This document shows positions 33,102-48,684 of a stretch of DNA of 64,000 nt, in pieces. The notes beneath the pieces were generated by a model, which did no database searches, was not told the DNA's origin, and saw only the letters and a program-made list of their open reading frames with translations. The stretch spans positions 7,620 to 71,619 of the forward strand of contig CBDLPA010000017.1 in NCBI GenBank assembly GCA_965305135.1, read 5' to 3'. Both the position numbers and the translations under genes were made by a program. Every line of letters starts with the position of its first letter. Position 1 is the first letter of the stretch. Source of the stretch: an uncultured Colwellia sp. (GTDB taxonomy: Bacteria; Pseudomonadota; Gammaproteobacteria; Enterobacterales; Alteromonadaceae).

Positions 33102-34061
33102 TTACTTTTTTACCATAAAATGTGTGTTGTTAATTTCATCTAAACTCGGCAATGCAGTCATTGCACCAACTTTTGAACAAACCATACCGCTAACTTTTTC
33201 AGCAAACTCTACAAATCCTTTCATTTTATCTGCATATAATATGTCGATACCTGAACTATTAGCCATTTGATATAGAATAGCACCAATAAATGAGTCTCCA
33301 GCCCCCGTAGTATCTACGGCATTGATTTCATATGCTGGCACAATATATTGCTCACCATTTTGAGACACTAAACAGCCATGTTTACCGAGCGTAACAAATA
33401 TCAAACTAACACCTTTTTGATGTAAAGCATTACACGCTTCTTTTTGATCTTTAATGCCCGTAAGTAGCTCTAATTCATCGTCACTCACTTTGACTACATC
33501 TGCCATTTTCATAAAAACATCACAACGTTGTTTAAACTGCTCTATATTATCTTTCCACAAATCCATCCGGTAATTTGGGTCAAAAACAATAGTATTACCG
33601 TTTAACTTAGCTAGATTACCTGCGGCTAAATAGCTATCGAACAGGTTACCTCCTAGCAGAGCAGTTGCAGAGCCAAAATGAATAATAGAATTATCAAGTA
33701 ATGGCTCAAGCCTTGAATCCGTTAACGTTAACTGCTCATCAGCTCCTCGGTTAAAAGTAAACTCTCTTTCACCTTCATCAGCTAAAGAAACAAAAGCTAA
33801 CGTTGTAGCCGTTGAAAGAATTTGTACAAAATCTATATTTACGTTATAGCTCTTTAAGCGATCTAATAAATAAAGACCAAAAGGATCATTTCCAACAGCA
33901 CCTACAAACTCAGAATCACCTCCTAAATGCGCAATGCAGGCAGCCACATTTGCAGGCGCTCCTCCTGCCTTTTTAATAAAGTCGCAGCCTGTTTTTAAAT
34001 CTGAATTAACCTGCGTACAAACAAAGTCGATTAAGATTTCACCGATACAAATAACTTTCAT
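33102..34061 (-). CDS. PfkB-family carbohydrate kinase (fructokinase)
   Basis: GGAPANVA, FDPNYR, VKVSDDEL, DTTGAGDSF; located in the fructan locus. Confidence 0.9.
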   Translation of the reverse strand: MKVICIGEILIDFVCTQVNSDLKTGCDFIKKAGGAPANVAACIAHLGGDSEFVGAVGNDPFGLYLLDRLKSYNVNIDFVQILSTATTLAFVSLADEGEREFTFNRGADEQLTLTDSRLEPLLDNSIIHFGSATALLGGNLFDSYLAAGNLAKLNGNTIVFDPNYRMDLWKDNIEQFKQRCDVFMKMADVVKVSDDELELLTGIKDQKEACNALHQKGVSLIFVTLGKHGCLVSQNGEQYIVPAYEINAVDTTGAGDSFIGAILYQMANSSGIDILYADKMKGFVEFAEKVSGMVCSKVGAMTALPSLDEINNTHFMVKK

Positions 34062-34095
34062 GATAATCTCTATTTAATAAAAGAAGTTGATAATT

Positions 34096-34183
34096 ACAAC
34101 GTTTGTTTACTGTTAATTGATATAATCGAAGAGAAACTTCAGTTACTTCTGATTATGTCACCCCACGAATTAAACAACGTTGT
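34096..34183. promoter_or_regulatory. Two LacI-type operators (fructokinase / LacI B)
   Basis: ACAACGTTTGT variant at 34096-34106 and perfect ACAACGTTGT at 34174-34183. Confidence 0.78.
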
Positions 34184-34374
34184 CTTTTTTTATTATTAGA
34201 CTATATTGATTCAAATAGTGCAAGAGTTTTCTATATAATAGTAATATCTCATGTACACTATGTGTTGTTTAATTAAGATAAGTAACGTTAAACATAATTA
34301 AACAATAATTCATTCGCATGCGGAATATTCTGAAGTATATCTGAGCTAATTTAAAAGCTAATAAGGAAAAAAAA

Positions 34375-35367
34375 GTGGTAACCATCAAGCAAGTCGCTGC
34401 ACATGCGGGCGTGTCATTTAAAACGGTTTCAAGGGTTGTAAATAAAGATCCTACGGTTAAAGCCGTCAATCAAGAAAAAGTACTTAAAGCCATAGAAGAA
34501 CTAGGTTATCGCCCAAATAGAGCGGCAAGTATGACTAGAAGAAAACATTCAGGTGTTTTTGGTTTAATCGCTGACGAGCTTTTAGAAACACCTTTCACTT
34601 TCGATATCATCAGAGGTGCTCAAGATATAGCATGGGAACAAAACAAAGAATTAATGGTATTTAATGTTAATGAAAAACGTTTCAGTGCTGAACAAGCTAT
34701 TGAACACCTATTTGAGCATCGCGTAGAAGGCATTATTTACGCAGCTATGTATCATAGAGTCCTTGATATTCCTGATGATTTATTAAAGATCCCCGCAGTT
34801 TTGGTAAACAGCAGCCCAATAAAAGAAAATCTAGCTTGTGTAATACCTGATGAAGTACAAGCAGCAGAAACAATAACCCATTCATTAATAGCAAAAGGCT
34901 ACAAACGCATCGCTTTCTTAAACTTGAATGAAAAGATTGAAGCGGCAAAAGGAAGAAAACAAGGGGTTATCAATGCTTTTAAGCAACATAATTTACCGAT
35001 GGAAGACTTATATATTGAATCAGTTATCATCGAAGATAAAGATGGTGAAAAATCAATTACTCGTGAAGCAACTAGGCGAGTCATAAATACGTTTAACCCT
35101 GATGCTATTCTTTGCGGCCAAGATTTTATGGCCGTAGAGGTTTATTTTGTAATGCAAGCAATGGGATATGGTGTCAAAAAAGATATTGGTATTGGCAGTT
35201 TTGATAATTGGGAAAATACCCCTGAACTACTTCAACCCATGTTAACAACTATGGCATTACCTCACTATAAAATGGGACAATGGGCAATGAATTACTTACT
35301 TGCCGGACGCACTGATATCATCAAACATAAAGAACAATTCGAATTGATAGAGCGCGAATCATTTTAA
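34375..35367 (+). CDS. LacI-family repressor (copy B, canonical HTH)
   Basis: MVTIKQVAAHAGVSFKTVSRVVN...LGYRPN; sugar-binding domain follows. Confidence 0.93.
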   Translation: MVTIKQVAAHAGVSFKTVSRVVNKDPTVKAVNQEKVLKAIEELGYRPNRAASMTRRKHSGVFGLIADELLETPFTFDIIRGAQDIAWEQNKELMVFNVNEKRFSAEQAIEHLFEHRVEGIIYAAMYHRVLDIPDDLLKIPAVLVNSSPIKENLACVIPDEVQAAETITHSLIAKGYKRIAFLNLNEKIEAAKGRKQGVINAFKQHNLPMEDLYIESVIIEDKDGEKSITREATRRVINTFNPDAILCGQDFMAVEVYFVMQAMGYGVKKDIGIGSFDNWENTPELLQPMLTTMALPHYKMGQWAMNYLLAGRTDIIKHKEQFELIERESF

Positions 35368-35387
35368 TAATCAGGCTCTGATTATTC

Positions 35388-36635
35388 CTATGATGGTTTG
35401 TCTGAATTACATGCTAACGTTTGTTGGGAATTAGATAATAAAAAATAAGATATAAATGTACAAACAATGACGACACTACCTAATAGTTTATAAGAAGCGG
35501 AAAAACCGATAGTATCATATAATATACCGACGCTTCCTGATATAAATGAAGCACCTAACTGCGTAAAAACTAAAAATCCTACTAGGTAGATAGTCGATGA
35601 TAGTCGCTCATCAAAGTTGGCAGCAATGTACTTAAATAAAGCAACAAGTAAGATAGGCAACTCGATAGCGTGTAATAATTTCATTAACGAAATAAAAATA
35701 TATCCTTCCGCATAGCCAGAACCAACCATCCGGGAAGCCATAAATATACCACTTAAAATAAGACCATTTTTAGCGCCAATTTTATTCACTAAAAATGGTG
35801 CTAAAAACATTCCTCCTGCCTCAAGAAATACCTGAAACGAATTTAAATATCCATAGACAAGGTTGCCCTCTGCTTTAGTCGGAAATAACGAAGAAAAATA
35901 AATGGGAAATTGTTGGTCGTAGACCATATAAATACAGGAAACACCCATCACAAAAAATACTAATTTCCAAAAATTTGGCTGTATAAATAAGGCTATGATT
36001 TCTTTGGAATTTGGCGTAGATGACCCTTTATTATATTTCGCATTATCATTTTTTTTTGTTGATACTTTTACCAAGCAAATGATAGTAAAAAAGACAATAC
36101 CGCATACGGAACTCAACCAAAAATTATATTCCGGATTTAAATTCAACAGGGCTCCTGCAAATAAGGTAGCTAAAGCCCAACCTAACGATCCCCACATACG
36201 GGCCTTACCAAATTCGAAGCCGATGGTCCTACTAACTCGTTCAATATAGGTTTCAAGTACACCAATACCTGCACCAAATGCAATGGCGAAAATAACTGCT
36301 CCTAATATAGTTACAGTATAAAAGTAGCTATTTAATAAAGGTCCATATACATAAATAAAAAAGGGGCCCATACAGATTAAAGCGCCCCCTACAACATAAA
36401 GTAAATGTTTTTTTAAACCTAGTTTATCCTGCATAAAGCCATAAAATAGCATCACAAACAGTGCTACTAAGGCGTTAACACCAAACACAACGCCGATTTT
36501 TTCCCCTGTTAAGCCAACAACTTGGTCTAACCAAATTGAAAATAATGAAAACGAGAATGACCACGTTAAAAAAAAGCTAAAAAATGCAGCGCTCATTAAC
36601 CAATAACACAACTTATCTGTTTTCATTAAAATCAC
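35388..36635 (-). CDS. MFS oligosaccharide:H+ symporter (LacY/CscB/RafB family)
   Basis: YGFMQDKLGLKKHLL, FEFGKARMWGSLGWA, VYDQQF, QVFLEA, KLLHAIELP. Confidence 0.9.
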   Translation of the reverse strand: MILMKTDKLCYWLMSAAFFSFFLTWSFSFSLFSIWLDQVVGLTGEKIGVVFGVNALVALFVMLFYGFMQDKLGLKKHLLYVVGGALICMGPFFIYVYGPLLNSYFYTVTILGAVIFAIAFGAGIGVLETYIERVSRTIGFEFGKARMWGSLGWALATLFAGALLNLNPEYNFWLSSVCGIVFFTIICLVKVSTKKNDNAKYNKGSSTPNSKEIIALFIQPNFWKLVFFVMGVSCIYMVYDQQFPIYFSSLFPTKAEGNLVYGYLNSFQVFLEAGGMFLAPFLVNKIGAKNGLILSGIFMASRMVGSGYAEGYIFISLMKLLHAIELPILLVALFKYIAANFDERLSSTIYLVGFLVFTQLGASFISGSVGILYDTIGFSASYKLLGSVVIVCTFISYFLLSNSQQTLACNSDKPS

Positions 36636-36666
36636 CTTAGAGAACCCTAATCAATAAACGCAATCA

Positions 36667-38271
36667 TTACCAAATAGATTTAAGTTCACTTATCGTAATA
36701 TTTTCTAGGGTTATTTCACTATTAGCTTCAATATTTACCGACGAATATGGCGTAGTCGGAAAGACTATCGAGGTAATAACTGTTTCACCATCATTAACAA
36801 ATATCTCAAATGATGATGTATCAACATAAATATTAAATCGGTATTTTGATAGTCTTGGTGTCGTGATTGCTCTTTGAATATTAGCAAACTTACTATCAAA
36901 AGAAATATCTCCCGAGAGTGATCTATCGAATATAATCTCACCAGAAGTGACATCTAAATTTATTGACGTTTTTTCACCTAACTCATTATCAAATATTAAT
37001 TTAATAGAATCTGAATTTAATGGGCTTACATCAAACTTAAGTTGATGTAAGCCAACATTTTTGTTGGCACTCACCAAGCTATAGTTACTTTCACCAGAAA
37101 ATTCTTGATAAAACGCTTTTTGCTTAACAATGTTACTCAACTCGTCAACTGGTGTGGATGCAACTCTTAACCCAGCGTTAGTTTTGACTATAGTCAACGC
37201 ACGTGGAATTGTCATGGCACTACGCCACTTCTCTGTCGGCACTTGATTCGCGTATAACCAATTGCTCATCCAGCCAATAAATAGTCGACGACCATCTTCT
37301 TCCGGAACATCAGAGAAAGTGACACCCGCATAATTATCTGTGCCATAATCAAGCCACACACCACTTTCTGTAACTTCATTATTTACGGTAATAGGCTTAA
37401 CATCGTCTTCAAAATCACTTGTTAACGTAAAAGTTTTACCGTCAAAGTCACCAATAAAATATTGCGTTGCTGAGCCACCGTTTGGCCCCCCTGGGTTTAT
37501 GCTAACTAATAATGCATACTTATAGTCAGTAGTGCCTTCAATTGGCATTTTGATCAAATCAGGACATTCCCACACGCCACCATGAACACCCCATTGTTTG
37601 CCAAAATCACTTTCTAATTGCCAATCAATTAAATTTTCTGAGGAATAAAAGCCAATGTGATCCTTTTGCGCCAATACCATAACCCATTTTTCACTTTCTT
37701 GATGCCAAGAAACTTTAGGATCTCGAAAGTCTCTGATACCAGGATTTTTAAGCACAGGGTTTTGTGCATATTTCAACCAAGTTCGTCCATTATCTATACT
37801 GTAAGCAATACCCTGAGTTTGAAAATCAATTTTACCCAGCTTTTCCCTTTCGGCATTGTGATAGGTATAAATAGCCACTAGTGGTGGGTTTTCTTTAGTC
37901 CCTAATCCAGAGGTATTATTCCAATCAACTACGGCACTACCTGAAAAAATAGTTCCACGCTCATCAGGGTATAAAGCAATTGGAAACTGCTCCCAATGAA
38001 CTAAATCTTTACTAATAGCGTGGCCCCAATGCATAGGTCCCCAAATAGAATCTTCAGGATTATATTGATAAAACAAATGATATTCACCTTGATAATAAAC
38101 CATACCATTAGGATCATTCATCCAGTTATCTTGAGGGCTAAAGTGAAATTGAGGGCGATATTTTTCAGTATAGTGTGATGTATTACCACTTATATTTTCA
38201 TTGACTGGTCTCACTTCATTCATCTCACACCCACATAAAAATATTATAATTAAGAACGCAATAGCTCGCAT
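36667..38271 (-). CDS. GH32 exo-beta-fructosidase/levanase, probable lipoprotein
   Basis: WMNDPNG, FSGSAVVD, RDPKV, WECPDL catalytic motifs; lipobox LCGC. Confidence 0.95.
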   Translation of the reverse strand: MRAIAFLIIIFLCGCEMNEVRPVNENISGNTSHYTEKYRPQFHFSPQDNWMNDPNGMVYYQGEYHLFYQYNPEDSIWGPMHWGHAISKDLVHWEQFPIALYPDERGTIFSGSAVVDWNNTSGLGTKENPPLVAIYTYHNAEREKLGKIDFQTQGIAYSIDNGRTWLKYAQNPVLKNPGIRDFRDPKVSWHQESEKWVMVLAQKDHIGFYSSENLIDWQLESDFGKQWGVHGGVWECPDLIKMPIEGTTDYKYALLVSINPGGPNGGSATQYFIGDFDGKTFTLTSDFEDDVKPITVNNEVTESGVWLDYGTDNYAGVTFSDVPEEDGRRLFIGWMSNWLYANQVPTEKWRSAMTIPRALTIVKTNAGLRVASTPVDELSNIVKQKAFYQEFSGESNYSLVSANKNVGLHQLKFDVSPLNSDSIKLIFDNELGEKTSINLDVTSGEIIFDRSLSGDISFDSKFANIQRAITTPRLSKYRFNIYVDTSSFEIFVNDGETVITSIVFPTTPYSSVNIEANSEITLENITISELKSIW

Positions 38272-38272
38272 T

Positions 38273-39592
38273 TTAGTTTCCTTGTTTATGTAAAATAGAA
38301 GACATATCTTCTAACGTTCGCCCCTTAGTTTCGGGCATTAATTTGATAACAAATAGCAGTTGTAAAAACATCATCACGGCAAAAAATGTGAAGATATGAC
38401 TCGGTTGATAATGACTCAAGAAATAAGGCATTACTAAAGTAATAATGGCGGCAAAAACCCAATGTGTTCCAGAACCAAAAGATTGCCCTTTGGTACGTAC
38501 ACTATTAGGAAATATTTCAGCAATAAATACCCAAATAACAGCACCTTGGCCGATCGCATGAGCAGCTATAAAAGCAAACACAAAAAATACTACTGTTATA
38601 CCACCTGTGCCGGAAGAAAAAGCCCAAGCAACAACACTTAAAGAAATAATGTAGCCAATAGAACCTATCAGCATTAAGATTTTTCGACCCGCCTTATCAA
38701 TTAAATACACACCTAGCATGGTAAAAAACAAATTAATCAAGCCCACACCTGCTGTAGAAAGTAATGACGAGCTACTATCTAAGCCTGCCAGCTCAAAAAC
38801 GCGAGGTGCATAATAAATAATAAAGTTAATGCCTGATAACTGATTAAACATTGCCAATAAAAAAGCTAATAAAATTGGAAAGCTATAAGCTTTAGAAAAG
38901 AGCGGATCCTTTTGATGACCACTGGTATCTTGCTGAATTTCTTTGACTAATATATCCGCTTTCGGTTCGCCGAGTGAAACCATAATACTTTTGGCTTTTT
39001 CAACATTATTATCATGAAGAATTAACCAACGAGGGCTCTCAGGTGCACGTGAAATCATCATTAAATATAAGAATGCAGGAACCGCTTCTATGCCTAACAT
39101 TAATCGCCAATCTAGGTCCGATATGCCTGAAATTAAATAATTAGATAAAAATGCGATTAAGATACCAAAAACGATTTGAAACTGATAAATAGAAACTAAG
39201 CGGCCACGAATTTTAGCTGGTGCAATTTCTGAAATATACGCAGGCACAGCAATAGAAGAGATACCGACACCGACACCACCAATGAATCGCAAAATAGCAA
39301 AAGTATATGGATCTGTCGCTAACGCGGAACCAATAGCGGACAATAAATACAGTATACCAATTAATACTAAGGTTTTTTTACGCCCGAATTTATCACATGG
39401 GTAACTGCCCGATAATGCGCCAATGACGGTGCCCCATAATGCTGAAGACATGACAAACAAACCATGAAATAAAGGACTTGTTTGCCATAATTCTTGAATA
39501 GGCTGATCAGCCCCAGAAATAACAGCAGTATCAAAGCCGAATAAAAACCCAGCAACGGCAACAGTAATCGCCCAAAAAGTTACTTTATTCAA
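38273..39592 (-). CDS. Sugar porter family MFS (probable fructose transporter)
   Basis: GFLFGFDTAVISGA, DKFGRKK, AYISEIAPAKIRG, PESPRWL, NQLSGIN, PETKGRTLE. Start corrected to TTG 39592 after a GGGAG RBS; the ORF-track extension to 39784 runs across an operator. Confidence 0.92.
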   Translation of the reverse strand: MNKVTFWAITVAVAGFLFGFDTAVISGADQPIQELWQTSPLFHGLFVMSSALWGTVIGALSGSYPCDKFGRKKTLVLIGILYLLSAIGSALATDPYTFAILRFIGGVGVGISSIAVPAYISEIAPAKIRGRLVSIYQFQIVFGILIAFLSNYLISGISDLDWRLMLGIEAVPAFLYLMMISRAPESPRWLILHDNNVEKAKSIMVSLGEPKADILVKEIQQDTSGHQKDPLFSKAYSFPILLAFLLAMFNQLSGINFIIYYAPRVFELAGLDSSSSLLSTAGVGLINLFFTMLGVYLIDKAGRKILMLIGSIGYIISLSVVAWAFSSGTGGITVVFFVFAFIAAHAIGQGAVIWVFIAEIFPNSVRTKGQSFGSGTHWVFAAIITLVMPYFLSHYQPSHIFTFFAVMMFLQLLFVIKLMPETKGRTLEDMSSILHKQGN

Positions 39593-39640
39593 AATAGTAC
39601 TCCCCAAAAAGTTATTATTTATCCATACTACCGCATTTAA

Positions 39641-39650
39641 ACAACGTTGT
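39641..39650. promoter_or_regulatory. LacI-type operator ACAACGTTGT (sugar porter)
   Basis: Perfect palindrome about 50 bp upstream of the TTG start. Confidence 0.82.
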
Positions 39651-39719
39651 CTTTTATTTTTATACACGAATATTGAAAAACGAAATATTCGTGTAGTTAT
39701 GCTAATTAAATACCGATTA

Positions 39720-40026
39720 ACCAACCGTTTATATTTAGTCTGAGCACTCATGCGGAAATGTTCAAAACTCACAAAACACATCATACTGCTTCTTCATCAA
39801 GACGATTATTTGGGCAAAATTTTCTACATGCGTACTTGAGTCTATTGCTTGCTAGTCATCATTTCCGTCAATATGTAGAGTCCCACAAGTGTCGGAAGTA
39901 TATGAACCAATTTCGGCACCTTCACTGTCTAAAACTCGCATACCAACCATTTGTAAACGCGTTATCAAAACTACCTATACCCATAGTCATTGAAGCTGCA
40001 ACTTTGTTTTTTATTCGTTTATTCAA
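39720..40026 (-). pseudogene. Possible decayed gene fragment with intact operator and RBS
   Basis: Operator (40070), GGGAGAA RBS, TTG at 40026, then MNKRIKNKVAASMTMGIGSF... broken by stops and frame changes; identity unknown. Confidence 0.3.
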
Positions 40027-40069
40027 ATATTCTCCCATAACTATTAATTGTGATTTCAAACAAACATTA

Positions 40070-40079
40070 ACAACGTTGT
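40070..40079. promoter_or_regulatory. LacI-type operator ACAACGTTGT
   Basis: Perfect palindrome. Confidence 0.78.
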
Positions 40080-40360
40080 TTTCGAGGTATCTAGTCAATT
40101 TATAATTAAAGCTATTTCTATTTTGTTATTTACACTTAGGTTATGAAAAATACTGGTTTCACCATTAGGCCACTTAACCTCCAAGCGGTTAAATAGTTTA
40201 TCGAGTTGTTGATCATCATGCTTAACAACCGATTCTGATAAATCATTATTAGCGTTTGAGTAAAAAAGAATAATAAAAATGTTAAGGCTTTTTCATCATT
40301 GCATATTGGTTAGATAATTTCTGAGCTTTATTATTTACAATAAATACACACGACTAATAT

Positions 40361-40387
40361 AAAAAAGGCCTACAAAATTGCAGGCCT
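40361..40387 (-). terminator. Terminator after susD
   Basis: Minus strand AGGCCTGCA-ATTT-TGTAGGCCT-TTTTT. Confidence 0.8.
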
Positions 40388-42115: not shown

Positions 42116-42160
42116 AATTTATTCTCAAATTTAGTTCAGTCAATATTTCAAACGTTGTGA

Positions 42161-45118
42161 TTAAAAAGTTAAATCAACACCAATGCTAAAACTTCTTGGA
42201 ATAGGGAATACCTCATTCGGCGTTTCAGGATCTTGACTTAATGTGCCGTTAGGAGTAATCGTAACTAAATTAGCACCTCGTAGGTAGAATCTTGCATCAA
42301 CAATACCGTACTGCTCTAAAAACTGATCATCAGGCGTATAACCAATAGACAAATTTCTTAATTTTAAATAACTGCCATCTTCATAAAAGAAACTTGATTG
42401 TCGACCTTCACCATTATTATCGATAAGCGTTAGCGCCGGTACATTTGAATTAGTATTGGTTTCAGACCAAGCATTTAAAACTCTGTCGCCATAATTCGAA
42501 CCAATATTCAACGAAGTAAAGTCAGTAAACAAACGCCAGTTATTTCTAACTTGGCCACCTTTAACACCTTGCCAGAACATATTGAAATCCCAGTTTTTGT
42601 AGAACAAGGAAACATTAAAGCCATAGGTATAATCTGGATCGGTATCAACAAAGAAATCTTGGTCATTATCAGTAATAACGCCATCGCCATCTAAATCAGC
42701 CCAACGAATTCGACCTAAACCAGCACCTGATTGAGTTGCTGCTGCATCAATTTCTTCTTGGTTTTGAAATAAACCATCAGCAACGTATCCATAAACAGAA
42801 TTGATAGACTGACCTAGAATAGTTTTATCTTGACCATTACCACCGAAAGAATTAATGACATCTTCAGGTAAAGCGGTCACTTTATTTTTTACTGTTGAAA
42901 TATTAAAAGAGATATCAAAGAAGATATCATCATCAAGTGAATCAAAAGTTAGCGCATCTTCATAACCAACAATAACTTCAACACCCGTGTTTTCAATAGT
43001 GCCACCATTCACCCATTTTTGGGCACCTTCACCTAGTGTCGCTATCGGTCTTGTTAGGGTTAAAATATCTTTTGTTTCTTTATCAAACCAATCGATACTG
43101 GCATAAACCGCACCGTTATATAAATTCACATCAATACCAATATTAGTTTGAGTTGATGTTTCCCATTTTAAATCTTCATTTCCTGTTTGTGCACGAACGA
43201 AACCTGAGGGCAATGTGCCGGAATTCGAGCCAGTGATATCATAAGCCGTTCCTTCATCTTGCTGATTAGTAAATAATGATTGTGTCGCATATCTTGGCTC
43301 ATAAGTGGTTGATGTTGCGGTACTTGCAATTTCCTGATTACCGGTTTCCCCCCAACTCGCTCTTAATTTAAATGCGCTTATTGCATCAATATCAAAAAAG
43401 TCTTCATTTGAGATGACCCAGCCACCAGATACAGAAGGGAATGTTCCATACTCATTGGCTGAACCGAATTTTGATGAGCCATCTCGTCTTACTGTCGCAG
43501 ACAACAAATAGCGGTTGTCATAGTTATAATCAGCACGAGCAAACTGTGAATCAAGTTTCCATTCATCTCCACCACCTTCAACACGTATATCTGAAGTTGC
43601 TTGTGAAAGGTGTGTAAAATCTCGAGCATCAGACGCAAAACCTGACCCAAAGGCGGTCGAACCTTCTGTTGAAAAATCTATCTGCTCAATACCGGCTAAG
43701 AAGTTAAAATTATGTTTATCATCTAATACCAGTTTATATTCCGCTGTAGTAGCAAGCGTAATACTTTTATTCCAATTGTTAATTTGAGCTAATTGATCAT
43801 CAAAACTTAACGTACCCGCTTGAAATGCTCTGGTATAGTTACGGAATTTAAATTGACCATAATCAATCCCTAGACTAGTACGAAGCTTTAAATCTTCTAT
43901 TGGGGAGTATTCCACATAAAAATTAGCCATTATTTTATTAAAGGTATTTTTATTATCTCGGTTCATTTCAATAAGACGAACAGGATTGTCTCTATCGGTA
44001 ATGCCCGCTACTGGTCCACCCCAACCACCGACATCATTATGGATAGGTACAATTGATTGTTGCTCAATAGAAAGACCTAAAATGCTTCCAGCTAAATCAT
44101 TAATTAAATTGGATGTTTGGTCAGTAATTAATAAACTTTGCCCTACTTTAAGTTTATCTTCGATTATTTGGTGATCAGAATTTACTCTAAAAGATAATCG
44201 CTCAAATTTGGAGCCATCAACAATGCCTTCCGCTTCATACGAACCGAGCGATGTGTAAAAGTTTGAGGTATCATTACTGCCAGAAATCGACAAATTTAAA
44301 TCAGTGACTTGAGCCGCACGAGTAACTTCGTTAAACCAATTAGTATCAGCAGGTCGCTGAACATTGGCGGAATCGGTGAATGTAGGAAGAATAACGCTAT
44401 TTAACACAGGATTATTAAAATCATTATTCCAATCATAACTGTATAAAGGGCTTGCTGAGTTTGGGTTTGAACCATCGTTTACCGCCGCTTGCCAAACAGC
44501 CTCTCCGCGTTGTTGAGTATTTAAAGGATTTAAATCAAAACTATAATCTTGAAAAGTTTTATTGTAGCGAAAATCTACTTCAAGCTCTTTTGACTCTCCG
44601 CGTTTCGTCGAAACGACAATAACGCCATTGCCTGAACGAGCACCATAAATACTGGCCGCTGCAGCATCTTTAAGAACCTGGATATTTAGAATATCATTAC
44701 CGTTTATTTCATGTAGTCCTGATTTTGTTGGTATACCATCGATAATATATAATGGATCGTTATTACCCAATGGACCAAGGCCTTGCCCACGAACTCTAAC
44801 TGTTGCCCCTGGATTAGGGTTACCACTTGTCGTAATTTGCAAGCCAGGTATTCTACCCTGTAGGTTCTGCATGACATTACCCGATGGTAAGTCAATGATT
44901 TCTTCTAATGCAACGGTTGAAACAGCACCAGTTAAATCATCTTTTTTAATTGTGCTATAGCCTGTTGATACTGTGATGATCTCAATTTCTTGCTCCTCAT
45001 CTACAGTCGTGTCTTGTTCGGCATGAACTAATGTCATGGGAAGTAATAGTAATAGCGAACTAGTTTTTATAGCTGCTTTCACCATCACTGTCAGTGGATT
45101 AAGTTTAAAGTCTTTCAT
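42161..45118 (-). CDS. susC: SusC/RagA-family TonB-dependent transporter
   Basis: KDDLTGAVSTV, PLYIIDG, IQVLKDAAAASIYGARSGNGVIVVSTKRG, ATVRRDGSSKFG, DLKWETSTQTNIG, EDGSYLKLRNLSIGY. Confidence 0.95.
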   Translation of the reverse strand: MKDFKLNPLTVMVKAAIKTSSLLLLLPMTLVHAEQDTTVDEEQEIEIITVSTGYSTIKKDDLTGAVSTVALEEIIDLPSGNVMQNLQGRIPGLQITTSGNPNPGATVRVRGQGLGPLGNNDPLYIIDGIPTKSGLHEINGNDILNIQVLKDAAAASIYGARSGNGVIVVSTKRGESKELEVDFRYNKTFQDYSFDLNPLNTQQRGEAVWQAAVNDGSNPNSASPLYSYDWNNDFNNPVLNSVILPTFTDSANVQRPADTNWFNEVTRAAQVTDLNLSISGSNDTSNFYTSLGSYEAEGIVDGSKFERLSFRVNSDHQIIEDKLKVGQSLLITDQTSNLINDLAGSILGLSIEQQSIVPIHNDVGGWGGPVAGITDRDNPVRLIEMNRDNKNTFNKIMANFYVEYSPIEDLKLRTSLGIDYGQFKFRNYTRAFQAGTLSFDDQLAQINNWNKSITLATTAEYKLVLDDKHNFNFLAGIEQIDFSTEGSTAFGSGFASDARDFTHLSQATSDIRVEGGGDEWKLDSQFARADYNYDNRYLLSATVRRDGSSKFGSANEYGTFPSVSGGWVISNEDFFDIDAISAFKLRASWGETGNQEIASTATSTTYEPRYATQSLFTNQQDEGTAYDITGSNSGTLPSGFVRAQTGNEDLKWETSTQTNIGIDVNLYNGAVYASIDWFDKETKDILTLTRPIATLGEGAQKWVNGGTIENTGVEVIVGYEDALTFDSLDDDIFFDISFNISTVKNKVTALPEDVINSFGGNGQDKTILGQSINSVYGYVADGLFQNQEEIDAAATQSGAGLGRIRWADLDGDGVITDNDQDFFVDTDPDYTYGFNVSLFYKNWDFNMFWQGVKGGQVRNNWRLFTDFTSLNIGSNYGDRVLNAWSETNTNSNVPALTLIDNNGEGRQSSFFYEDGSYLKLRNLSIGYTPDDQFLEQYGIVDARFYLRGANLVTITPNGTLSQDPETPNEVFPIPRSFSIGVDLTF

Positions 45119-45164
45119 TATAGTTATATTTCCTTAAAGCTAATGTATCTATGCTAAATATGAA

Positions 45165-45227
45165 TCAACGTTGTTATTCTTTATTTTAGAATCACCCCTA
45201 ATAAACACCACAATAAAACAACGTTGT
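45165..45227. promoter_or_regulatory. Two LacI-type operators upstream of susC
   Basis: TCAACGTTGT at 45165-45174 and ACAACGTTGT at 45218-45227. Confidence 0.8.
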
Positions 45228-45676
45228 CTTTTAAGGGTAATAAACTATTGAGCAATTATCAAACATTATTTCACAATATTATTTTTTTATTTTTAAAAAA
45301 TGAGCATTGACATAACAAAACACAAAAATAATAATTAAAAAACAATATATTACACTAATTATAATTCAGAAGATTTTGATGATTATTACTTTAAAAATAC
45401 GAACATGATATTTAAAACTTGCCTCATTAATATTCTGAGAGAGCCTAGTTCTTTTAACGGCTATAAAATTTAATTTTCTACTTATTTCAACGACAATTAA
45501 GAATAAGAACTATTTAACTTAGATTAATAACTTTTAATAATTACGCTTAAAATATGACTTATGATGAAAACCAACAAATCAAAAAAAACGTAATAAGTTG
45601 TTTTACATTAATATTTTTAATTAACTCATGAGTATAGATATTATTTTCTATATTTTAATTTTTGAACCTTTTTAGA

Positions 45677-45686
45677 ACAACGTTGT
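45677..45686. promoter_or_regulatory. Distal LacI-type operator ACAACGTTGT
   Basis: Perfect palindrome about 560 bp upstream of susC. Confidence 0.72.
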
Positions 45687-45796
45687 CGAACATTAAAATA
45701 AAATAAATTACTTTAATATTTTATTTTTGAAAAAAAACGAGGTAACAAAAAAATTTTAATAACTAATATTACTTCATAACACTTTGATTAAAATTA

Positions 45797-45832
45797 AAAA
45801 ACTCAATTTAAGTGGCCTTAAATTGAGTTTTT
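45797..45832 (-). terminator. Terminator after the multidomain GH32
   Basis: AAAAACTCAATTTAAG-tggc-CTTAAATTGAGTTTTT. Confidence 0.85.
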
Positions 45833-45876
45833 ATGTTAATACCAAACTTATCCCTGTTTAGCCGGTAATTTCCTGA

Positions 45877-48684
45877 TTATTTAGTAAATCGAGCTAACCC
45901 GGTAACTGAAATATTATCAGCGGTTGAATATAAACCAACTTCATAATCGGCTAATTCATACAGCCTAAAACTTAATGCTCTAAAATCATTCATATATACA
46001 GCCCCTACACCTGCAGCAGGATCTAATAAAACATCTATTTTGACACCGGTAGTTAAGTCCAGCGGTAAACTAACAGTTGGATTCGAGCTATTGTTTATAT
46101 CTCCTTCAAAATAGAATTTAGCTTGATTTGAGCCAGCATCAATTTCGACAAAGGCATTTTTATCGGCTTCTCCTTCTGTTGCTTTACGCAATTGAATACC
46201 AAATTTAGCATCAGCATTATCGCTGGTGACGGTCATTGTAATTCTATTTTTGTTTGCACTCGGCGCTAACGTTATTGCCGAATCACTAGTCAAGCTTGGG
46301 TTTGTCTCCGACGCAGTTACCGAACCGTTAGTCCACACTGAGGTGGTTGCCATTGTAGTGGCTATACCATCTCGTAATTTTTGTGGTAATTGAACACTTA
46401 ATGCACCGTTTGATTGTGTCACTTGATGCACCATGAGATCACCACCCCAATCTGGCGCATTGCCATCAACACGACCAACATTATGCGCTACCCATCCAAA
46501 CAATAATCGTTCTTCATTATTACCTGCTGTTCTAGCTGCATAAAAAGCACGTCCATCAAGAGCTTCATACTCAGGTTTTCCCCAAGTTGTATTATCTTGA
46601 GTTAAGTATTTAACTTGGCGAGAGTCATCTCTTTGATCAGAATAAACAATAAATGATGTATCTGTTAACGTAAAATAATCAGCTACTTCTAAATTTAAAT
46701 TAGACGTTTCAGAATATAAAGGTGTCTCTGCGCTCCAATTACTTAAATCAGTAGAGGTGTAAAGCCCAATTGCTGCTTTTGATTGATAACGAGATGTAAT
46801 TAACATCCAGTATTTCTGTGCATTAGCATTCCAAAATACTAATGGATCTCGAAAATCGAAATCACTATAGCCATCTGTGCCACTAAAAGTATCTGCCGCA
46901 ACAGGCTGCCATTCTGCCAAGGTATTATCTTTGGCTGTAGCATGCATTACCGCTTCTACAGGGTTAAAATCTGTATTGTGACCAGTATAGAACAGGTGAT
47001 ATTGCCCTTCTTGATCTTCAATTACACTACCTGAGCCTATCCACTGGTCTTGCTTAGCAGGGTTACCCGATGCTGCTAATACTTCTTGAGGGAAAGTCGA
47101 AGTTAATAAGTCATCCGTTTTTGCTAAACTCCATGAATGAAAGCCACTATTTTGTAAGTAATATATATAATAGCTGCCATTGTCATAAAAGGGATTTGGA
47201 TCTCCCAAATCCAATTTTAAATCTTGAGATTGTCCAACAGTAGTGGAAACAACTGAATCTTGAGAAGGAATAATTGCCGCTCTATCGCCTTGTCTAATTT
47301 CATCAACTAGCACAAAAGCTAAAGAGCCATCATCTTCACTTGCATCATGTTGATCTATTATTTCAATAACGGCTTTTTGACCAATCAGACTAGAGACATC
47401 CCAACTATACCAATCAATTTTGGTTGCTTCGCCATTACCCGTAGCATGTCTTACTATTTTGCCATTGACTCTTAATACCATAGCGGTTGCTTTATCACTG
47501 CTATAAGCGTTAGTACCACCACCTATTAAAAAATTAATATATTTTTCGTTGATAGTAAAAATAGGTGTTACCAAAGTACCTGTTGCGCCATCGCCAATCC
47601 AACCTAAAGCAGTACCATCTTCTTCAAATCCATCAGCACGGCTTGAAAACACTCGTTCACCAAGATGATTAGTAATATCGGCTCCCCAAAAACCACCATC
47701 AAGTTTAATAAAGTCACCTGTAACGTTAAAGTTGTGTTCTTGATAGGTGTTATATTGTCCACAACAAAATTCAAAGCCAGCAATATTTTGACCCGGATCG
47801 GTAATTCGTGTGAATGCAGCACTACCATTTGATTCTGGTGAACTTGCCAAAGGAGCTGTTGTTAATACAACACTTGCTGTATCAGGTATTTTTGCTGGCT
47901 TGTCTGCTGCTCTAAATTCATCGGCTAAGATATAAGGAACTGCGCCATCAGAATTATCGGCTGGATGCATATCAATAAATTTAATTTGTGCGGTCTGCCC
48001 GGCTAAATCTTTTACACTCCAGCTATCCCATTCAATAGTATTTTGTTGATTTTTCCCTGTCGATTGACGCACAACTTTGTTATCAACAACTAAGGTTACA
48101 GCCGTTGTATTTGCAGCGCCAAATGCATTGTCTCCACCACCAACTAAAAAGTTAATATAATCTTTACTTATAGTGAAACTTGGGCTCATTACCGTACCCG
48201 TGGCCGTTGGACCAACCTGCGCAGCAGATGTATCGGAATCCGAATCAAAACCATCTCCATAACTAGAAAAAACGCGTTCCCCAATATGGCCAACAACGTC
48301 AGCTCCCCAAAAACCACCATCCAACTCTATAAAATCACCTGTAGCATCTGTGAATTCGTGTTCTTGATAAGCATCAAAACCTCCACAGCAAAACTCGAAA
48401 CCAGCGATATTTTGCCCCGGTTCAGCACTTCGAATAAACAATGCTGAACCTTCATTTTCAGGCTCAGTTGTTACCACAACATCACCAGAATCTGGTGTAT
48501 CAGGAGATTCTCCTCCTGGATTTAAAATATCATCAACCGTCTGCCCTTCTTCTAATACAATTAATTCAACATTACTTGGTGGTGCCGTAAATTGATCATC
48601 ACTACCGCATCCCGAAATAATCATTGCGCCAATGCAAAGAGCACTTCGCAACATAAATTGATTTAGCTTGAATTGATTATTCAT
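45877..48684 (-). CDS. Multidomain GH32 lipoprotein (endo-fructanase-like catalytic domain with two tandem N-terminal modules)
   Basis: Lipobox ISGC; two repeats of about 195 aa; catalytic part GDPNPFY, WIGSGSVI, FRDPLVFW, LEVADYF, WGGDLMVH resembling the BT1760-type endo-levanase. Confidence 0.8.
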   Translation of the reverse strand: MNNQFKLNQFMLRSALCIGAMIISGCGSDDQFTAPPSNVELIVLEEGQTVDDILNPGGESPDTPDSGDVVVTTEPENEGSALFIRSAEPGQNIAGFEFCCGGFDAYQEHEFTDATGDFIELDGGFWGADVVGHIGERVFSSYGDGFDSDSDTSAAQVGPTATGTVMSPSFTISKDYINFLVGGGDNAFGAANTTAVTLVVDNKVVRQSTGKNQQNTIEWDSWSVKDLAGQTAQIKFIDMHPADNSDGAVPYILADEFRAADKPAKIPDTASVVLTTAPLASSPESNGSAAFTRITDPGQNIAGFEFCCGQYNTYQEHNFNVTGDFIKLDGGFWGADITNHLGERVFSSRADGFEEDGTALGWIGDGATGTLVTPIFTINEKYINFLIGGGTNAYSSDKATAMVLRVNGKIVRHATGNGEATKIDWYSWDVSSLIGQKAVIEIIDQHDASEDDGSLAFVLVDEIRQGDRAAIIPSQDSVVSTTVGQSQDLKLDLGDPNPFYDNGSYYIYYLQNSGFHSWSLAKTDDLLTSTFPQEVLAASGNPAKQDQWIGSGSVIEDQEGQYHLFYTGHNTDFNPVEAVMHATAKDNTLAEWQPVAADTFSGTDGYSDFDFRDPLVFWNANAQKYWMLITSRYQSKAAIGLYTSTDLSNWSAETPLYSETSNLNLEVADYFTLTDTSFIVYSDQRDDSRQVKYLTQDNTTWGKPEYEALDGRAFYAARTAGNNEERLLFGWVAHNVGRVDGNAPDWGGDLMVHQVTQSNGALSVQLPQKLRDGIATTMATTSVWTNGSVTASETNPSLTSDSAITLAPSANKNRITMTVTSDNADAKFGIQLRKATEGEADKNAFVEIDAGSNQAKFYFEGDINNSSNPTVSLPLDLTTGVKIDVLLDPAAGVGAVYMNDFRALSFRLYELADYEVGLYSTADNISVTGLARFTK

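What the first reader, a model, noticed from the sequence alone, without database searches (positions are those of the whole stretch)
33102..48684. Bacteroides-type fructan PUL with a genuine SusC/SusD pair in a gammaproteobacterium
Seen: endo-type GH32, susC, susD, sugar porter, exo-GH32, CscB-like permease, fructokinase and pgi. Known: this mirrors the B. thetaiotaomicron levan PUL (BT1757-BT1763), and SusD partners are a Bacteroidetes hallmark. SusC/D-like fructan systems have been reported in a few marine Gammaproteobacteria such as Pseudoalteromonas (from memory), so this is rare rather than unprecedented. Also seen: this SusC runs from signal peptide straight to TonB box/plug without the N-terminal extension usual in Bacteroidetes SusC, and there is no separate SGBP-B. 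Inference: a horizontally acquired 'selfish' uptake machine rewired to the host TonB, lipoprotein export and LacI control.
Basis: partly seen in the sequence, partly recalled or inferred. Interest (0 to 1): 0.62.

Follow-up and report, generated by a model that had tools for sequence, protein, structure and literature searches.

The report
SusC/SusD fructan locus in Colwellia
A marine Colwellia-type gammaproteobacterium carries a real Bacteroidota-style SusC/SusD fructan-uptake gene cluster, but this kind of system was published for marine Gammaproteobacteria in 2024-2026, so this is a new and slightly different member, not a new kind.

Summary
Window 31350-48684 encodes a BT1760-like GH32 lipoprotein, SusC, SusD, a sugar-porter MFS, an exo-type GH32 lipoprotein, a CscB/LacY-type permease, a divergent LacI, a fructokinase and pgi. 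SusC passes TIGR04056 and TIGR04057 and lacks the N-terminal extension. SusD and SusC match BT1762 and BT1763 over their full length.

The host is Colwellia-like, and this is the only SusD in its 4.57-Mb genome.

The kind is already described. Zühlke et al. (ISME J 2026; bioRxiv 2024) characterised the Pseudoalteromonas distincta SusC/D fructan PUL, and the window SusD is 76% identical to their PdSusD.

This work adds the following:
- In both the SusD and SusC trees, all 18 gammaproteobacterial sequences form one clade. Its sister is Fulvivirgaceae/Chryseosolibacter (Cytophagales).
- That sister locus still has the SusC N-terminal extension, a DUF4960 binding protein, a T9SS-tailed GH32 and a BT1754-type sensor. 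None of the 19 gammaproteobacterial loci has DUF4960 or the sensor.
- Most gammaproteobacterial loci instead carry LacI and CscB. All 18 fetched loci and the window carry the palindrome ACAACGTTGT upstream of susC.
- In this locus the endo-type GH32, with two CBM38-like modules, sits next to susC under the same palindrome, and the exo-GH32 has lost its CBM38 insert.

Verdict: a new member of a known kind, of moderate interest.

The parts
48876..48885 (.). LacI-type operator palindrome ACAACGTTGT (full site TAGACAACGTTGTCTA) upstream of the endo-type GH32. A second copy lies at 48782-48791.
   Evidence: A -35-like hexamer overlaps it.
45877..48684 (-). GH32 lipoprotein, 935 aa (lipobox ISGC|GSDD). 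It has two tandem CBM38-like modules, a BT1760-like catalytic propeller (aa 493-734) and a C-terminal beta-sandwich. It is the candidate surface endo-fructanase (levanase type).
   Evidence: 6R3R BT1760, 107 bits, aa 493-913. GDP, RDP and E motifs are aligned.
47857..48462 (-). CBM38-like module 1 of the endo-type GH32.
47239..47838 (-). CBM38-like module 2 of the endo-type GH32. The model is a beta-sandwich.
   Evidence: the module HMM hits the CBM38 insert of PUL exo-GH32s at E ~1e-28; pLDDT 87.8; nearest folds are CBM4, CBM6, CBM35 and CBM61, with TM 0.3-0.47.
45797..45832 (-). Terminator-like hairpin (16-bp stem) after the endo-type GH32.
45165..45227 (.). Two operator palindromes (45165-45174 with one mismatch, 45218-45227 exact), 47-109 bp upstream of the susC start. 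A further exact copy lies at 45677-45686.
   Evidence: The position is conserved in all 18 gammaproteobacterial loci.
42161..45118 (-). SusC/RagA-type TonB-dependent transporter, 985 aa. Order: signal peptide, acidic linker, TonB box IEIITVS, plug, barrel. No N-terminal extension.
   Evidence: BT1763 813 bits, query 11-985 against chain 71-1041; dN/dS about 0.07.
40409..42115 (-). SusD/RagB lipoprotein, 568 aa (VVSC|GNDLD). It is 76% identical to the characterised PdSusD (EGI74657.1).
   Evidence: dN/dS about 0.06.
40366..40387 (-). Intrinsic terminator after susD (AGGCCTGCAATTTTGTAGGCCT followed by a T run).
40245..40299 (-). Remnant (start codon plus about 55 bp, now with an early stop) of the 1045-aa CCP_MauG/FG-GAP/UnbV gene that follows susD in Thalassotalea and Glaciecola loci. 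Coordinates are approximate.
39641..39650 (.). Operator palindrome about 50 bp upstream of the MFS start. Another copy lies at 40070-40079 in the spacer.
   Evidence: conserved in L002.
38273..39592 (-). Sugar-porter family MFS (TIGR00879), 439 aa from the TTG at 39592. Probable inner-membrane fructose transporter and counterpart of BT1758.
   Evidence: It is 47-51% identical to the MFS of the sister Bacteroidota loci.
36667..38271 (-). Exo-type GH32 lipoprotein, 534 aa (LCGC|EMNE), with WMNDPNG, RDP and ECP motifs. It lacks the CBM38 insert of its orthologues.
   Evidence: exo-inulinases 8I12 and 1Y4W, 372-400 bits..
35388..36635 (-). LacY/CscB-type oligosaccharide:H+ symporter, 415 aa. Probable sucrose or short fructo-oligosaccharide permease.
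   Evidence: NF007077 512 bits. Present in 13/18 gammaproteobacterial loci and 0/62 Bacteroidota loci.
34375..35367 (+). LacI-family repressor, divergent from pfkB. Candidate regulator of the locus.
   Evidence: Conserved at 60-95% identity in 13/18 gammaproteobacterial loci.
34174..34183 (.). Operator palindrome in the pfkB/lacI divergent promoter region.
33102..34061 (-). pfkB-family fructokinase, 319 aa.
   Evidence: NF006957, 204 bits, below the equivalog cut-off.
31350..32978 (-). Glucose-6-phosphate isomerase (pgi copy 2), 83% identical to the copy at 27870-29543.
27870..30734 (.). Duplicated unit: pgi copy 1 (27870-29543, -), an operator at 29550-29559, and a LacI paralogue (29742-30734, +; 70% identical to LacI 34375-35367).
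49474..57380 (.). Adjacent sucrose-type locus: LacI, a GH13 protein (500 aa; only a weak Pfam Alpha-amylase match, and I read it as sucrose-phosphorylase-like by analogy with the GH13_18 of the P. distincta sucrose PUL), MFS_2, a classical TonB receptor and a second pfkB. One congener that lacks the fructan locus shares this locus.

Best explanation
This is a functional fructan utilisation locus of the 'gammaproteobacterial SusC/D' type. It descends from one ancient transfer of a Cytophagales-like Bacteroidota fructan PUL into Alteromonadales-type bacteria.

Proposed working (only the gene content and homologies are shown; the steps below are inferred):
1. The 935-aa GH32 lipoprotein captures fructan with its two CBM38-like modules and cuts it endo-wise. 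It is BT1760-like, so probably a levanase. It thereby also stands in for the missing DUF4960 binding protein.
2. The SusD lid and SusC barrel take up the oligosaccharides, and possibly short inulin directly. The host TonB energises uptake through the TonB box IEIITVS, without the Bacteroidota N-terminal extension.
3. The 534-aa exo-GH32 lipoprotein releases fructose, and residual sucrose, in the periplasm.
4. The sugar-porter MFS and the CscB-type permease carry these across the inner membrane.
5. Fructokinase and Pgi feed them into glycolysis.

Regulation was replaced. In place of the fructose-sensing hybrid two-component sensor of Bacteroidota, a LacI repressor binds ACAACGTTGT palindromes in front of four transcription units: endo-GH32; susCD; MFS/exo-GH32/cscB; and pfkB(-pgi)/lacI.
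For: - Family membership.
- Closest solved structures are the components of the B. thetaiotaomicron levan system, plus exo-inulinases for the small GH32.
- The window SusD is 76% identical to PdSusD_PUL (EGI74657.1) of P. distincta. There, SusC, SusD and GH32 are induced by inulin and levan, SusD binds inulin oligosaccharides, and labelled fructans are internalised; PMC13000452.
- The core fructan-contact residues of BT1762 (D67, the vicinal C298-C299, R368, and an aromatic residue at 395) are invariant in all 18 gammaproteobacterial SusDs. The residue list comes from PMC7782687.
- dN/dS is 0.06-0.07 for SusD and SusC within Colwelliaceae.
- The core susC-susD-MFS-GH32-cscB-lacI is syntenic in Thalassotalea, Colwellia, Glaciecola, Alteromonas, Paraglaciecola, Pseudoalteromonas, Rheinheimera and Aliiglaciecola.
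- Single clade with Fulvivirgaceae/Chryseosolibacter as sister: SH-aLRT 100 for the clade in both trees, and 100 (SusD) and 98 (SusC) for the sister grouping.
- The sister locus has the N-terminal extension, DUF4960, a T9SS GH32 and a hybrid sensor. None of the 19 gammaproteobacterial loci has DUF4960 or the sensor.
- Operator palindrome: 9 exact copies, all within 29550-48885 (14 hits allowing one mismatch, against 2.8 expected). It is present upstream of susC in all 18 gammaproteobacterial loci, 51 sites in 365 kb against 1 in 1.17 Mb.
- Terminators after the endo-GH32 and after susD.
- The module HMM matches the insert that the paper calls CBM38. The model is a CBM-like beta-sandwich.
Against: - There are no expression or growth data for this organism.
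- Three of the seven BT1762 levan-contact residues (D41, N43, W85) are replaced, and a loop is inserted at the W85 site.
- In P. distincta the orthologous SusD bound only inulin oligosaccharides, and weakly. The authors assign the complex to inulin, not levan.
- The endo-levanase assignment rests on about 107 bits to BT1760 and a sub-threshold PF16346 hit. I could not link the protein to the assayed PdGH32DIS.
- How SusD or the GH32 lipoprotein would reach the cell surface in a gammaproteobacterium is unknown.
- LacI binding to the palindrome, and the inducer, are untested. Two LacI paralogues could share the site.
Confidence: 0.8

Rival explanations
1. The locus is the same, but the SusC/D pair imports only inulin-type fructans and short fructo-oligosaccharides, as proposed for P. 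distincta. The neighbouring 935-aa GH32 acts independently, for example by remodelling levan-type exopolysaccharide, and its products enter by another route.
For: - PdSusD, 76% identical, bound only inulin oligosaccharides.
- W85, D41 and N43 of the levan-binding BT1762 are not conserved.
- The position of the endo-type GH32 relative to susCD varies between genera, and it is missing from many loci: 7 of 18 have it within 10 kb.
Against: - Here and in Thalassotalea the endo-type GH32 lies directly upstream of susC and carries the same operator palindrome.
- In Alteromonas and Paraglaciecola it is also preceded by the palindrome (sites at about 17548, before the gene start).
- P. arctica, which has such a PUL, grows on plant levan.
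- The periplasmic PUL GH32 of P. distincta cleaves both linkage types.
Confidence: 0.3
2. SusD is a relic in this host. It stays periplasmic or unassembled because gammaproteobacteria lack the Bacteroidota surface-lipoprotein export route. SusC then works alone as an ordinary TonB-dependent receptor.
For: - No export machinery for surface lipoproteins is evident in the locus.
- Isolated PdSusD binds very weakly, Ka about 43 per M.
- The N-terminal extension and the binding protein have been lost.
Against: - SusD is kept next to SusC in all 18 gammaproteobacterial loci. The lipobox was read as intact in the 17 fetched loci with a complete SusD plus the window.
- The binding-site core is invariant, and dN/dS is about 0.06, equal to that of SusC.
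- PdSusD is abundant and fructan-induced.
Confidence: 0.1
3. Artefact: a Bacteroidota contig or chimeric assembly mis-binned into a gammaproteobacterial genome.
For: A SusD is unexpected outside Bacteroidota, and the genome is a 96-contig draft.
Against: - The same contig carries Colwellia-type core genes.
- G+C is uniform across the window.
- Genome contamination is 0.04%.
- Homologous loci lie in complete or near-complete chromosomes of other Alteromonadales.
- The locus uses LacI and CscB genes that are absent from Bacteroidota loci.
Confidence: 0.01

Closest known systems
Fructan PUL of Pseudoalteromonas distincta with SusC/D-like proteins (Zühlke et al., ISME J 2026, PMC13000452; bioRxiv 10.1101/2024.09.11.612387)
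   Same: - The same orthologous core: susC without the CarboxypepD_reg domain, susD (76% identical to EGI74657.1), a lipoprotein GH32, an MFS, cscB and lacI.
- A single SusC/D pair in the genome.
- A marine Alteromonadales-type host.
- A sucrose locus with GH13, a TonB receptor and a fructokinase also exists. Here it is adjacent.
   Different: - The BT1760-like endo-type GH32 with two CBM38-like modules lies directly upstream of susC under the same operator. In P. distincta the endo-levanase is distal.
- The periplasmic exo-GH32 has lost the CBM38 insert.
- Fructokinase and a duplicated pgi/LacI unit are attached.
- The host family (Colwelliaceae) is not named in the paper's main text.
- LacI is never named in the paper's main text, which mentions 'regulatory elements' only in passing. 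It gives no operator and no donor lineage.
Bacteroides thetaiotaomicron levan PUL BT1754-BT1765 (SusCD BT1762-63, endo-levanase BT1760, SGBP BT1761, HTCS BT1754)
   Same: - SusD and SusC are full-length homologues (412 and 813 bits).
- The endo-type GH32 is BT1760-like.
- A periplasmic GH32, an MFS and a fructokinase are present.
- The vicinal Cys pair, D67 and R368 of the SusD fructan site are kept.
   Different: - No hybrid two-component sensor; LacI is present instead.
- No DUF4960 binding protein.
- No SusC N-terminal extension, whose deletion is lethal for levan growth in B. thetaiotaomicron.
- D41, N43 and W85 of the levan site are replaced.
- An extra CscB permease.
- The host lacks the Bacteroidota lipoprotein-export context.
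Fructan PUL of Fulvivirgaceae bacterium JP3-4 and Chryseosolibacter sp. (loci L067, L019), the nearest Bacteroidota relatives found
   Same: - SusD is 60-62% and SusC 47-48% identical.
- The SusD binding-site variant is the same (Y, A, loop insert, F).
- The MFS is 47-51% identical.
- The GH32 carries the CBM38 insert at the same site as in most gammaproteobacterial loci.
   Different: The Bacteroidota locus keeps the SusC N-terminal extension, DUF4960, a T9SS-tailed LamG-GH32 and a BT1754-like sensor. Its MFS lies upstream of susC. It has no LacI, no CscB and no ACAACGTTGT sites.
Classical proteobacterial carbohydrate utilisation loci with TonB receptors (for example Xanthomonas sux; 'SusD-less' gammaproteobacterial PULs)
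   Same: LacI-family control, an inner-membrane MFS and a TonB-dependent outer-membrane step. The neighbouring sucrose locus (49474-57380) is of this type.
   Different: Those loci have no SusD lid, and their receptors are not of the SusC/RagA subfamily.

Membership tests
SusC/RagA subfamily of TonB-dependent transporters | TIGR04056 above the curated cut-off, plus the TIGR04057 signature | tested here: met
   684 bits (cut-off 368) and 50.4 bits (cut-off 46.2). Best PDB match is BT1763, 813 bits.
SusC/RagA subfamily of TonB-dependent transporters | Plug and 22-strand barrel with an N-terminal TonB box | tested here: met
   PF07715 and PF00593. IEIITVS aligns with the TonB-box region of the sister SusCs and with DEVVVTG of BT1763.
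SusC/RagA subfamily of TonB-dependent transporters | N-terminal extension (CarboxypepD_reg-like Ig domain). Usual but not universal. | tested here: not met
   The TIGR04056 match starts at profile position 78, and there is no PF13715. The domain is present in sister L067. All 18 gammaproteobacterial SusCs have the short length, and the 7 N-termini read lack the domain. The paper reports the same.
SusD/RagB family | PF07980 and PF14322 above cut-off, with full-length similarity to a solved SusD | tested here: met
   120 and 50 bits. BT1762 412 bits over residues 13-567.
SusD/RagB family | Lipoprotein signal peptide, encoded immediately downstream of susC | tested here: met
   VVSC|GNDLD. 45 bp separate susC from susD.
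SusD/RagB family | Surface-exposed lid that associates with SusC | not testable with these tools
   Only indirect evidence: purifying selection and the predicted complex for the P. distincta orthologue in the paper.
Gammaproteobacterial SusC/D fructan PUL (Zühlke et al. 2026) | A SusC/D pair co-encoded with GH32 in a gammaproteobacterium, orthologous to PdSusC/D | tested here: met
   76% identity to EGI74657.1. Same clade in both trees. Host is Colwellia-like.
Gammaproteobacterial SusC/D fructan PUL (Zühlke et al. 2026) | PUL exo-GH32 carrying a CBM38 insert between blades IV and V | tested here: not met
   The insert is cleanly absent in the window, L002 and L003, and present in L010, L006, L017, L067 and L019. 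This is a lineage-specific loss, not an exclusion criterion.
Gammaproteobacterial SusC/D fructan PUL (Zühlke et al. 2026) | Induction by fructans and growth on them | not testable with these tools
B. thetaiotaomicron-type levan PUL | Fructose-sensing hybrid two-component regulator (BT1754 type) | tested here: not met
   No tblastn hit in the window or in the 18 gammaproteobacterial loci; 34 of 62 Bacteroidota loci have one.
B. thetaiotaomicron-type levan PUL | DUF4960 surface glycan-binding protein (BT1761 type) | tested here: not met
   PF16324 is absent from the whole genome. Found in 0 of 19 gammaproteobacterial loci against 27 of 62 Bacteroidota loci.
B. thetaiotaomicron-type levan PUL | Surface endo-levanase of the BT1760 type | tested here: inconclusive
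   The best PDB hit is BT1760 (E 8e-30) with the catalytic motifs aligned. PF16346 scores only 24.9 bits against a cut-off of 31.4. Activity was not tested.
CBM38 (fructan-binding module), for the two N-terminal modules | Sequence relationship to modules annotated as CBM38 | tested here: met
   The module HMM hits the insert of PdGH32PUL-type enzymes at E 1e-24 to 1e-32 over HMM positions about 65-194. The paper names that insert CBM38. The first ~65 residues, which hold the FEFCCG motif, are extra.
CBM38 (fructan-binding module), for the two N-terminal modules | Binding of inulin or levan | not testable with these tools
   The only support is a confident beta-sandwich model with weak CBM-type neighbours.

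The most novel reading that the evidence does not exclude
The Colwelliaceae form is a complete 'levan-type' SusC/D system outside Bacteroidota. An endo-fructanase lipoprotein with tandem CBM38-like modules doubles as the missing surface binding protein. It is co-repressed with susCD by one LacI operator, and it feeds the SusC/D pore. This would identify the 'unknown transporter' for levan oligosaccharides left open in the P. distincta model.

More broadly, the whole clade records one Cytophagales-to-Alteromonadales transfer. Only susC, susD, the MFS and the GH32 survived it, while the sensor, the binding protein, the T9SS enzyme and the SusC N-terminal domain were shed or replaced. That defines the minimal portable SusCD machine.
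Probability: 0.4. Interest if true: 0.5.

Novelty: new member of a known kind. Interest (0 to 1): 0.3.

Why it matters
SusC/D 'pedal-bin' importers were long treated as exclusive to Bacteroidota, and the published P. distincta work broke that rule. This locus adds a further host family.

The comparison across 18 gammaproteobacterial and 62 Bacteroidota loci gives a concrete list of what a SusCD system needs, and does not need, to work in a foreign cell envelope. It does without the N-terminal extension, without a DUF4960 binding protein and without the hybrid sensor. It has gained a Gly spacer after the lipid-anchored Cys, and it has LacI control through a conserved 10-bp palindrome.

That makes several open questions testable in culturable marine strains:
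- how SusD reaches the surface without Bacteroidota lipoprotein export;
- what the N-terminal extension is for;
- whether the complex takes levan as well as inulin.

Tried and rejected
- Contamination or mis-binning. Rejected: core Colwellia genes lie on the same contig, G+C is uniform, and homologous loci lie in finished Alteromonadales chromosomes.
- A hidden binding-protein gene in the 816-bp SusD-MFS spacer. Rejected: the spacer holds only ORF debris and the 5' remnant of a CCP_MauG/FG-GAP/UnbV gene that is intact in L002 and L004. That gene has no similarity to the GH32 modules.
- Pfam and PDB sequence searches on the N-terminal modules alone found nothing. Their identity came from an HMM built on homologues.
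- Linking the 935-aa GH32 to the assayed endo-levanase PdGH32DIS (EGI72341.1) through cluster accessions. The accession was not among the members listed, so the link stays open.
- Rfam found no RNA families or tRNA in the window, so there is no tRNA-linked island signature. No G+C deviation marks the locus.
- Supplementary files of the ISME paper are not held. I could not check whether a Colwellia locus appears in its Fig. 5 or tables.
- One genome search failed because the query exceeded the length limit. It was repeated in two halves.

Full report
**1. What is there**

The minus strand of window 31350-48684 carries a run of nine genes (ORFs; Pfam; NCBIfam).

- A 935-aa GH32 (45877-48684).
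- SusC (42161-45118).
- SusD (40409-42115).
- A sugar-porter MFS (38273-39784 as an ORF; the real start is probably the TTG at 39592, as in relatives).
- A 534-aa GH32 (36667-38271).
- A LacY/CscB-type permease (35388-36635).
- A divergent LacI on the plus strand (34375-35367).
- A pfkB fructokinase (33102-34061).
- pgi (31350-32978).

SusC is a true SusC/RagA protein. TIGR04056 scores 684 bits against a cut-off of 368, and the TIGR04057 signature scores 50.4 against 46.2. The match begins at profile position 78, and no CarboxypepD_reg domain is found. The protein reads: signal peptide (...VHA|EQD), an acidic linker, TonB box IEIITVS, then the plug.

SusD has PF07980 and PF14322 and a lipobox, VVSC|GNDLD. 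Both GH32s are lipoproteins: ISGC|GSDD and LCGC|EMNE.

**2. Closest solved structures**

- SusD matches BT1762 at 412 bits over residues 13-567.
- SusC matches BT1763 at 813 bits, query 11-985 against chain 71-1041. The first ~70 residues of BT1763, its N-terminal extension, have no counterpart here.
- Residues 493-913 of the large GH32 match the endo-levanase BT1760 (6R3R) at 107 bits, with the GDP, RDP and E motifs aligned.
- The small GH32 matches the exo-inulinases 8I12 and 1Y4W at 372-400 bits.

**3. Host and rarity**

The genome is 4.57 Mb in 96 contigs, 99.98% complete and 0.04% contaminated. It has exactly one SusD, two clear GH32s, both in this locus, and no DUF4960. A core gene on the right flank has its best named hits in Colwellia spp. 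at 72-73%. G+C is even across the window.

SusD is found in:
- 11 of 201 genomes of the same family, in 7 of 59 genera;
- 0 of 5 sampled congeners;
- 2 of 400 genomes drawn evenly from the class, one of which is this genome.

DNA searches in the five congeners found nothing for window ~33-49.4 kb. One congener (G087) shares the adjacent sucrose-type locus at 71-76% nucleotide identity. The fructan locus is thus accessory within the genus.

**4. Already published**

Zühlke et al. report the following (ISME J 2026, PMC13000452; preprint 2024).

- Pseudoalteromonas distincta has a fructan PUL with a SusC-like transporter (TIGR04056), a SusD-like lipoprotein (PF07980) and a GH32.
- These proteins are induced by inulin and levan.
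- SusD binds inulin oligosaccharides weakly.
- The PUL GH32 is exo-acting and carries a CBM38 insert.
- The endo-levanase is encoded elsewhere in the genome.
- The gammaproteobacterial SusCs lack the CarboxypepD_reg domain.
- 31 of 4681 gammaproteobacterial genomes have SusD, and 83% of the SusC/D pairs lie with GH32.

The window SusD is 76% identical to their protein EGI74657.1. SusD relatives at 75-94% identity are numerous in Colwellia, Thalassotalea, Alteromonas, Shewanella, Paraglaciecola and Pseudoalteromonas.

**5. Origin**

I fetched 80 loci around SusD relatives and built trees of SusD (80 sequences) and SusC (71 sequences).

In both trees all 18 gammaproteobacterial sequences, the window included, form one clade with SH-aLRT 100. 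This clade is nested in Bacteroidota. Its sister is Fulvivirgaceae bacterium JP3-4 plus Chryseosolibacter sp. (support 100 in the SusD tree, 98 in the SusC tree). The next branch out is an unclassified Bacteroidota MAG.

These are quick-search trees, and the way the loci were retrieved biases the sampling. 'Cytophagales-like donor' is therefore the best current reading, not a proof. Within the clade the branching follows host families only loosely. Rheinheimera, for example, sits among Alteromonadaceae.

**6. What was kept and what was replaced**

The sister locus L067 reads: MFS, SusC with CarbopepD_reg_2, SusD, DUF4960, GH32 with a CBM38-type insert, LamG-GH32 with a T9SS tail, a sensor built from a periplasmic-binding-protein domain, histidine kinase, receiver and AraC domains (BT1754 type), and a further GH32.

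| Feature | Gammaproteobacterial loci | Bacteroidota loci |
|---|---|---|
| DUF4960 | 0 of 19 | 27 of 62 |
| Hybrid sensor | 0 of 19 | 34 of 62 |
| CscB | 13 of 18 | 0 of 62 |
| LacI | 13 of 18, at 60-95% identity | 5 of 62, weak hits at 24-28% |

The 19 includes the window.

The conserved gammaproteobacterial core is susC-susD-MFS-GH32-cscB-lacI. All 18 gammaproteobacterial SusDs have Gly at +2 after the lipidated Cys, followed by a short G/S/N spacer before the acidic D-L-D motif. Gly at +2 occurs in only 3 of 56 Bacteroidota relatives. Whether this reflects adaptation to Lol sorting is speculation.

**7. Regulation**

The palindrome ACAACGTTGT occurs 9 times exactly, and every copy lies within 29550-48885. 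Allowing one mismatch gives 14 hits against 2.8 expected. The sites are:

- two before the endo-type GH32 (48782 and 48876; the latter is the 16-bp palindrome TAGACAACGTTGTCTA);
- before susC (45218, and 45165 with one mismatch), plus one at 45677;
- before the MFS (39641), plus one in the spacer (40070);
- in the pfkB/lacI divergent region (34174);
- inside pfkB (33522);
- before pgi copy 1 (29550).

Terminator hairpins follow the endo-type GH32 and susD. This gives four units.

The same 10-mer lies about 40-110 bp upstream of the susC start in all 18 gammaproteobacterial loci. In total there are 51 sites in 365 kb, against 1 in 1.17 Mb of Bacteroidota loci. This is a strong phylogenetic footprint for a LacI-type operator. 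Binding and the inducer are untested. LacI is never named in the published paper's main text, which refers to 'regulatory elements' only in passing.

**8. Ligand site**

The FOS-contacting residues of BT1762 are D41, N43, D67, W85, C298, R368 and Y395 (PMC7782687). Mapping them onto an alignment shows:

- D67, the vicinal C298-C299 pair and R368 are invariant in every sequence of the gammaproteobacterial clade and its sisters.
- Y395 is Phe.
- D41 and N43 are Tyr and Ala.
- The W85 site carries a loop insertion without Trp.

The Fulvivirgaceae sisters share this variant, so it predates the transfer. It agrees with the paper's remark that some levan-binding residues are missing. Linkage specificity stays open.

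dN/dS between the window and L002 or L003 is 0.06-0.07 for both SusD and SusC. This argues against a decaying relic.

**9. What is particular to this locus**

a. The BT1760-like GH32 lies directly upstream of susC, here and in Thalassotalea L002. In Alteromonas and Paraglaciecola it lies downstream of lacI. In P. haloplanktis it lies on the opposite strand. In many loci it is absent from the 10-kb flanks.

b. Its N-terminal half is two ~200-aa modules. Pfam and PDB sequence searches on the modules alone find nothing. Homologues carry 1-7 copies. An HMM of the module hits, at E ~1e-28, the insert of the PUL exo-GH32 of other genera, which the paper calls CBM38. The AlphaFold model is confident (pLDDT 87.8, pTM 0.88) and is a beta-sandwich. 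Its nearest solved folds are CBM4, CBM6, CBM35 and CBM61, MAM domains and gingipain adhesin domains, all only weakly similar (TM 0.3-0.47).

c. The exo-GH32 of the window, L002 and L003 lacks that insert cleanly. Orthologues and the Bacteroidota sisters have it at the same site, so Colwelliaceae lost it.

d. In L002, L004 and L005 a 1045-1050-aa CCP_MauG/FG-GAP/UnbV protein follows susD. The window retains only its start codon and ~55 bp, now with an early stop.

e. The Colwellia locus L003 has, in the slot after susD, a 648-aa protein made of three weakly matching modules and no catalytic domain. It is a candidate binding protein.

f. pgi and LacI are each duplicated, at 83% and 70% identity.

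**10. Mechanism and confidence**

Gene content, family membership, orthology to the characterised P. distincta system, purifying selection, the single-clade phylogeny and the conserved palindrome are shown.

The following are inferred:
- surface location of SusD and the endo-type GH32;
- endo-levanase activity;
- uptake of beta-2,6 as well as beta-2,1 oligosaccharides;
- LacI as the binder of the palindrome;
- the inducer.

I give 0.8 to the overall model. I give about 0.4 to the more specific claim that this variant is a complete levan-type SusC/D system in which the module-bearing enzyme replaces the binding protein.

**11. Verdict**

The finding is real and well read, but it is a new member of a published kind. 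The comparative results have some added value: the donor lineage, the shed and replaced parts, the conserved operator, and the module shuffling between the two GH32s. They do not make the locus a new category. Interest is 0.3.

Noticed in passing
window 57489-57658: A ~170-bp intergenic repeat lies between pfkB copy 2 and the first core gene. It occurs in dozens of copies (72-98% identity) in genomes of the same genus, so it looks like a MITE- or REP-like element. It sits at the right edge of the accessory sugar region.
   Followed up: no
window 40245-40299 (approx.), minus strand: The start codon and ~55 bp of a CCP_MauG/FG-GAP/UnbV gene survive here, now with an early stop. The gene is intact (1045-1050 aa) after susD in Thalassotalea L002 and Glaciecola L004/L005. 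This family often follows SusC/D pairs in Bacteroidota.
   Followed up: partly
L003:12392-14338 and L003:14436-19187: In a Colwellia MAG the slot after susD holds a 648-aa protein made of three divergent CBM38-like modules with no catalytic domain. It is a candidate surface glycan-binding protein. A 1583-aa LamG-GH32 with three more modules follows it.
   Followed up: partly
window 27870-30734 and 31350-35367: A tandem duplication of a pgi-operator-LacI unit: the two Pgi are 83% identical and the two LacI 70% identical. Each intergenic region carries ACAACGTTGT, so the two repressors may share operators.
   Followed up: partly
window 49474-57380: A classical sucrose-type locus without SusD lies directly beside the fructan locus: LacI, a GH13 protein that I read as sucrose-phosphorylase-like (only a weak Pfam Alpha-amylase match), MFS_2, a TonB receptor and pfkB. 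One congener (G087, contig C56) shares it at 71-76% nucleotide identity. It mirrors the separate 'sucrose PUL' of P. distincta.
   Followed up: partly
window 31118-31338: A 220-bp non-coding stretch downstream of pgi copy 2 is 84% identical to DNA next to the sucrose locus of congener G087. There it lies on the other side of the locus and in the opposite orientation, which hints at a rearrangement or insertion joint.
   Followed up: no
SusD N-termini, window 42040-42115 and loci L002-L020: All 18 gammaproteobacterial SusDs have Gly at +2 after the lipidated Cys, then a 1-3-residue G/S/N spacer before the acidic D-L-D motif. Bacteroidota relatives mostly have S-D or N-D directly after the Cys.
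   Followed up: partly
G000:C13:20110-21522: Two adjacent ORFs (329 and 358 aa) give weak GH32N matches (25-29 bits). They may be another five-bladed-propeller hydrolase family.
   Followed up: no
protein P0288 (cluster of P0143): A Paraglaciecola-type 1151-aa GH32 with modules is filed under a Parvamoeba rugata transcriptome in a eukaryote protein set. It is most likely bacterial contamination or a food bacterium.
   Followed up: no
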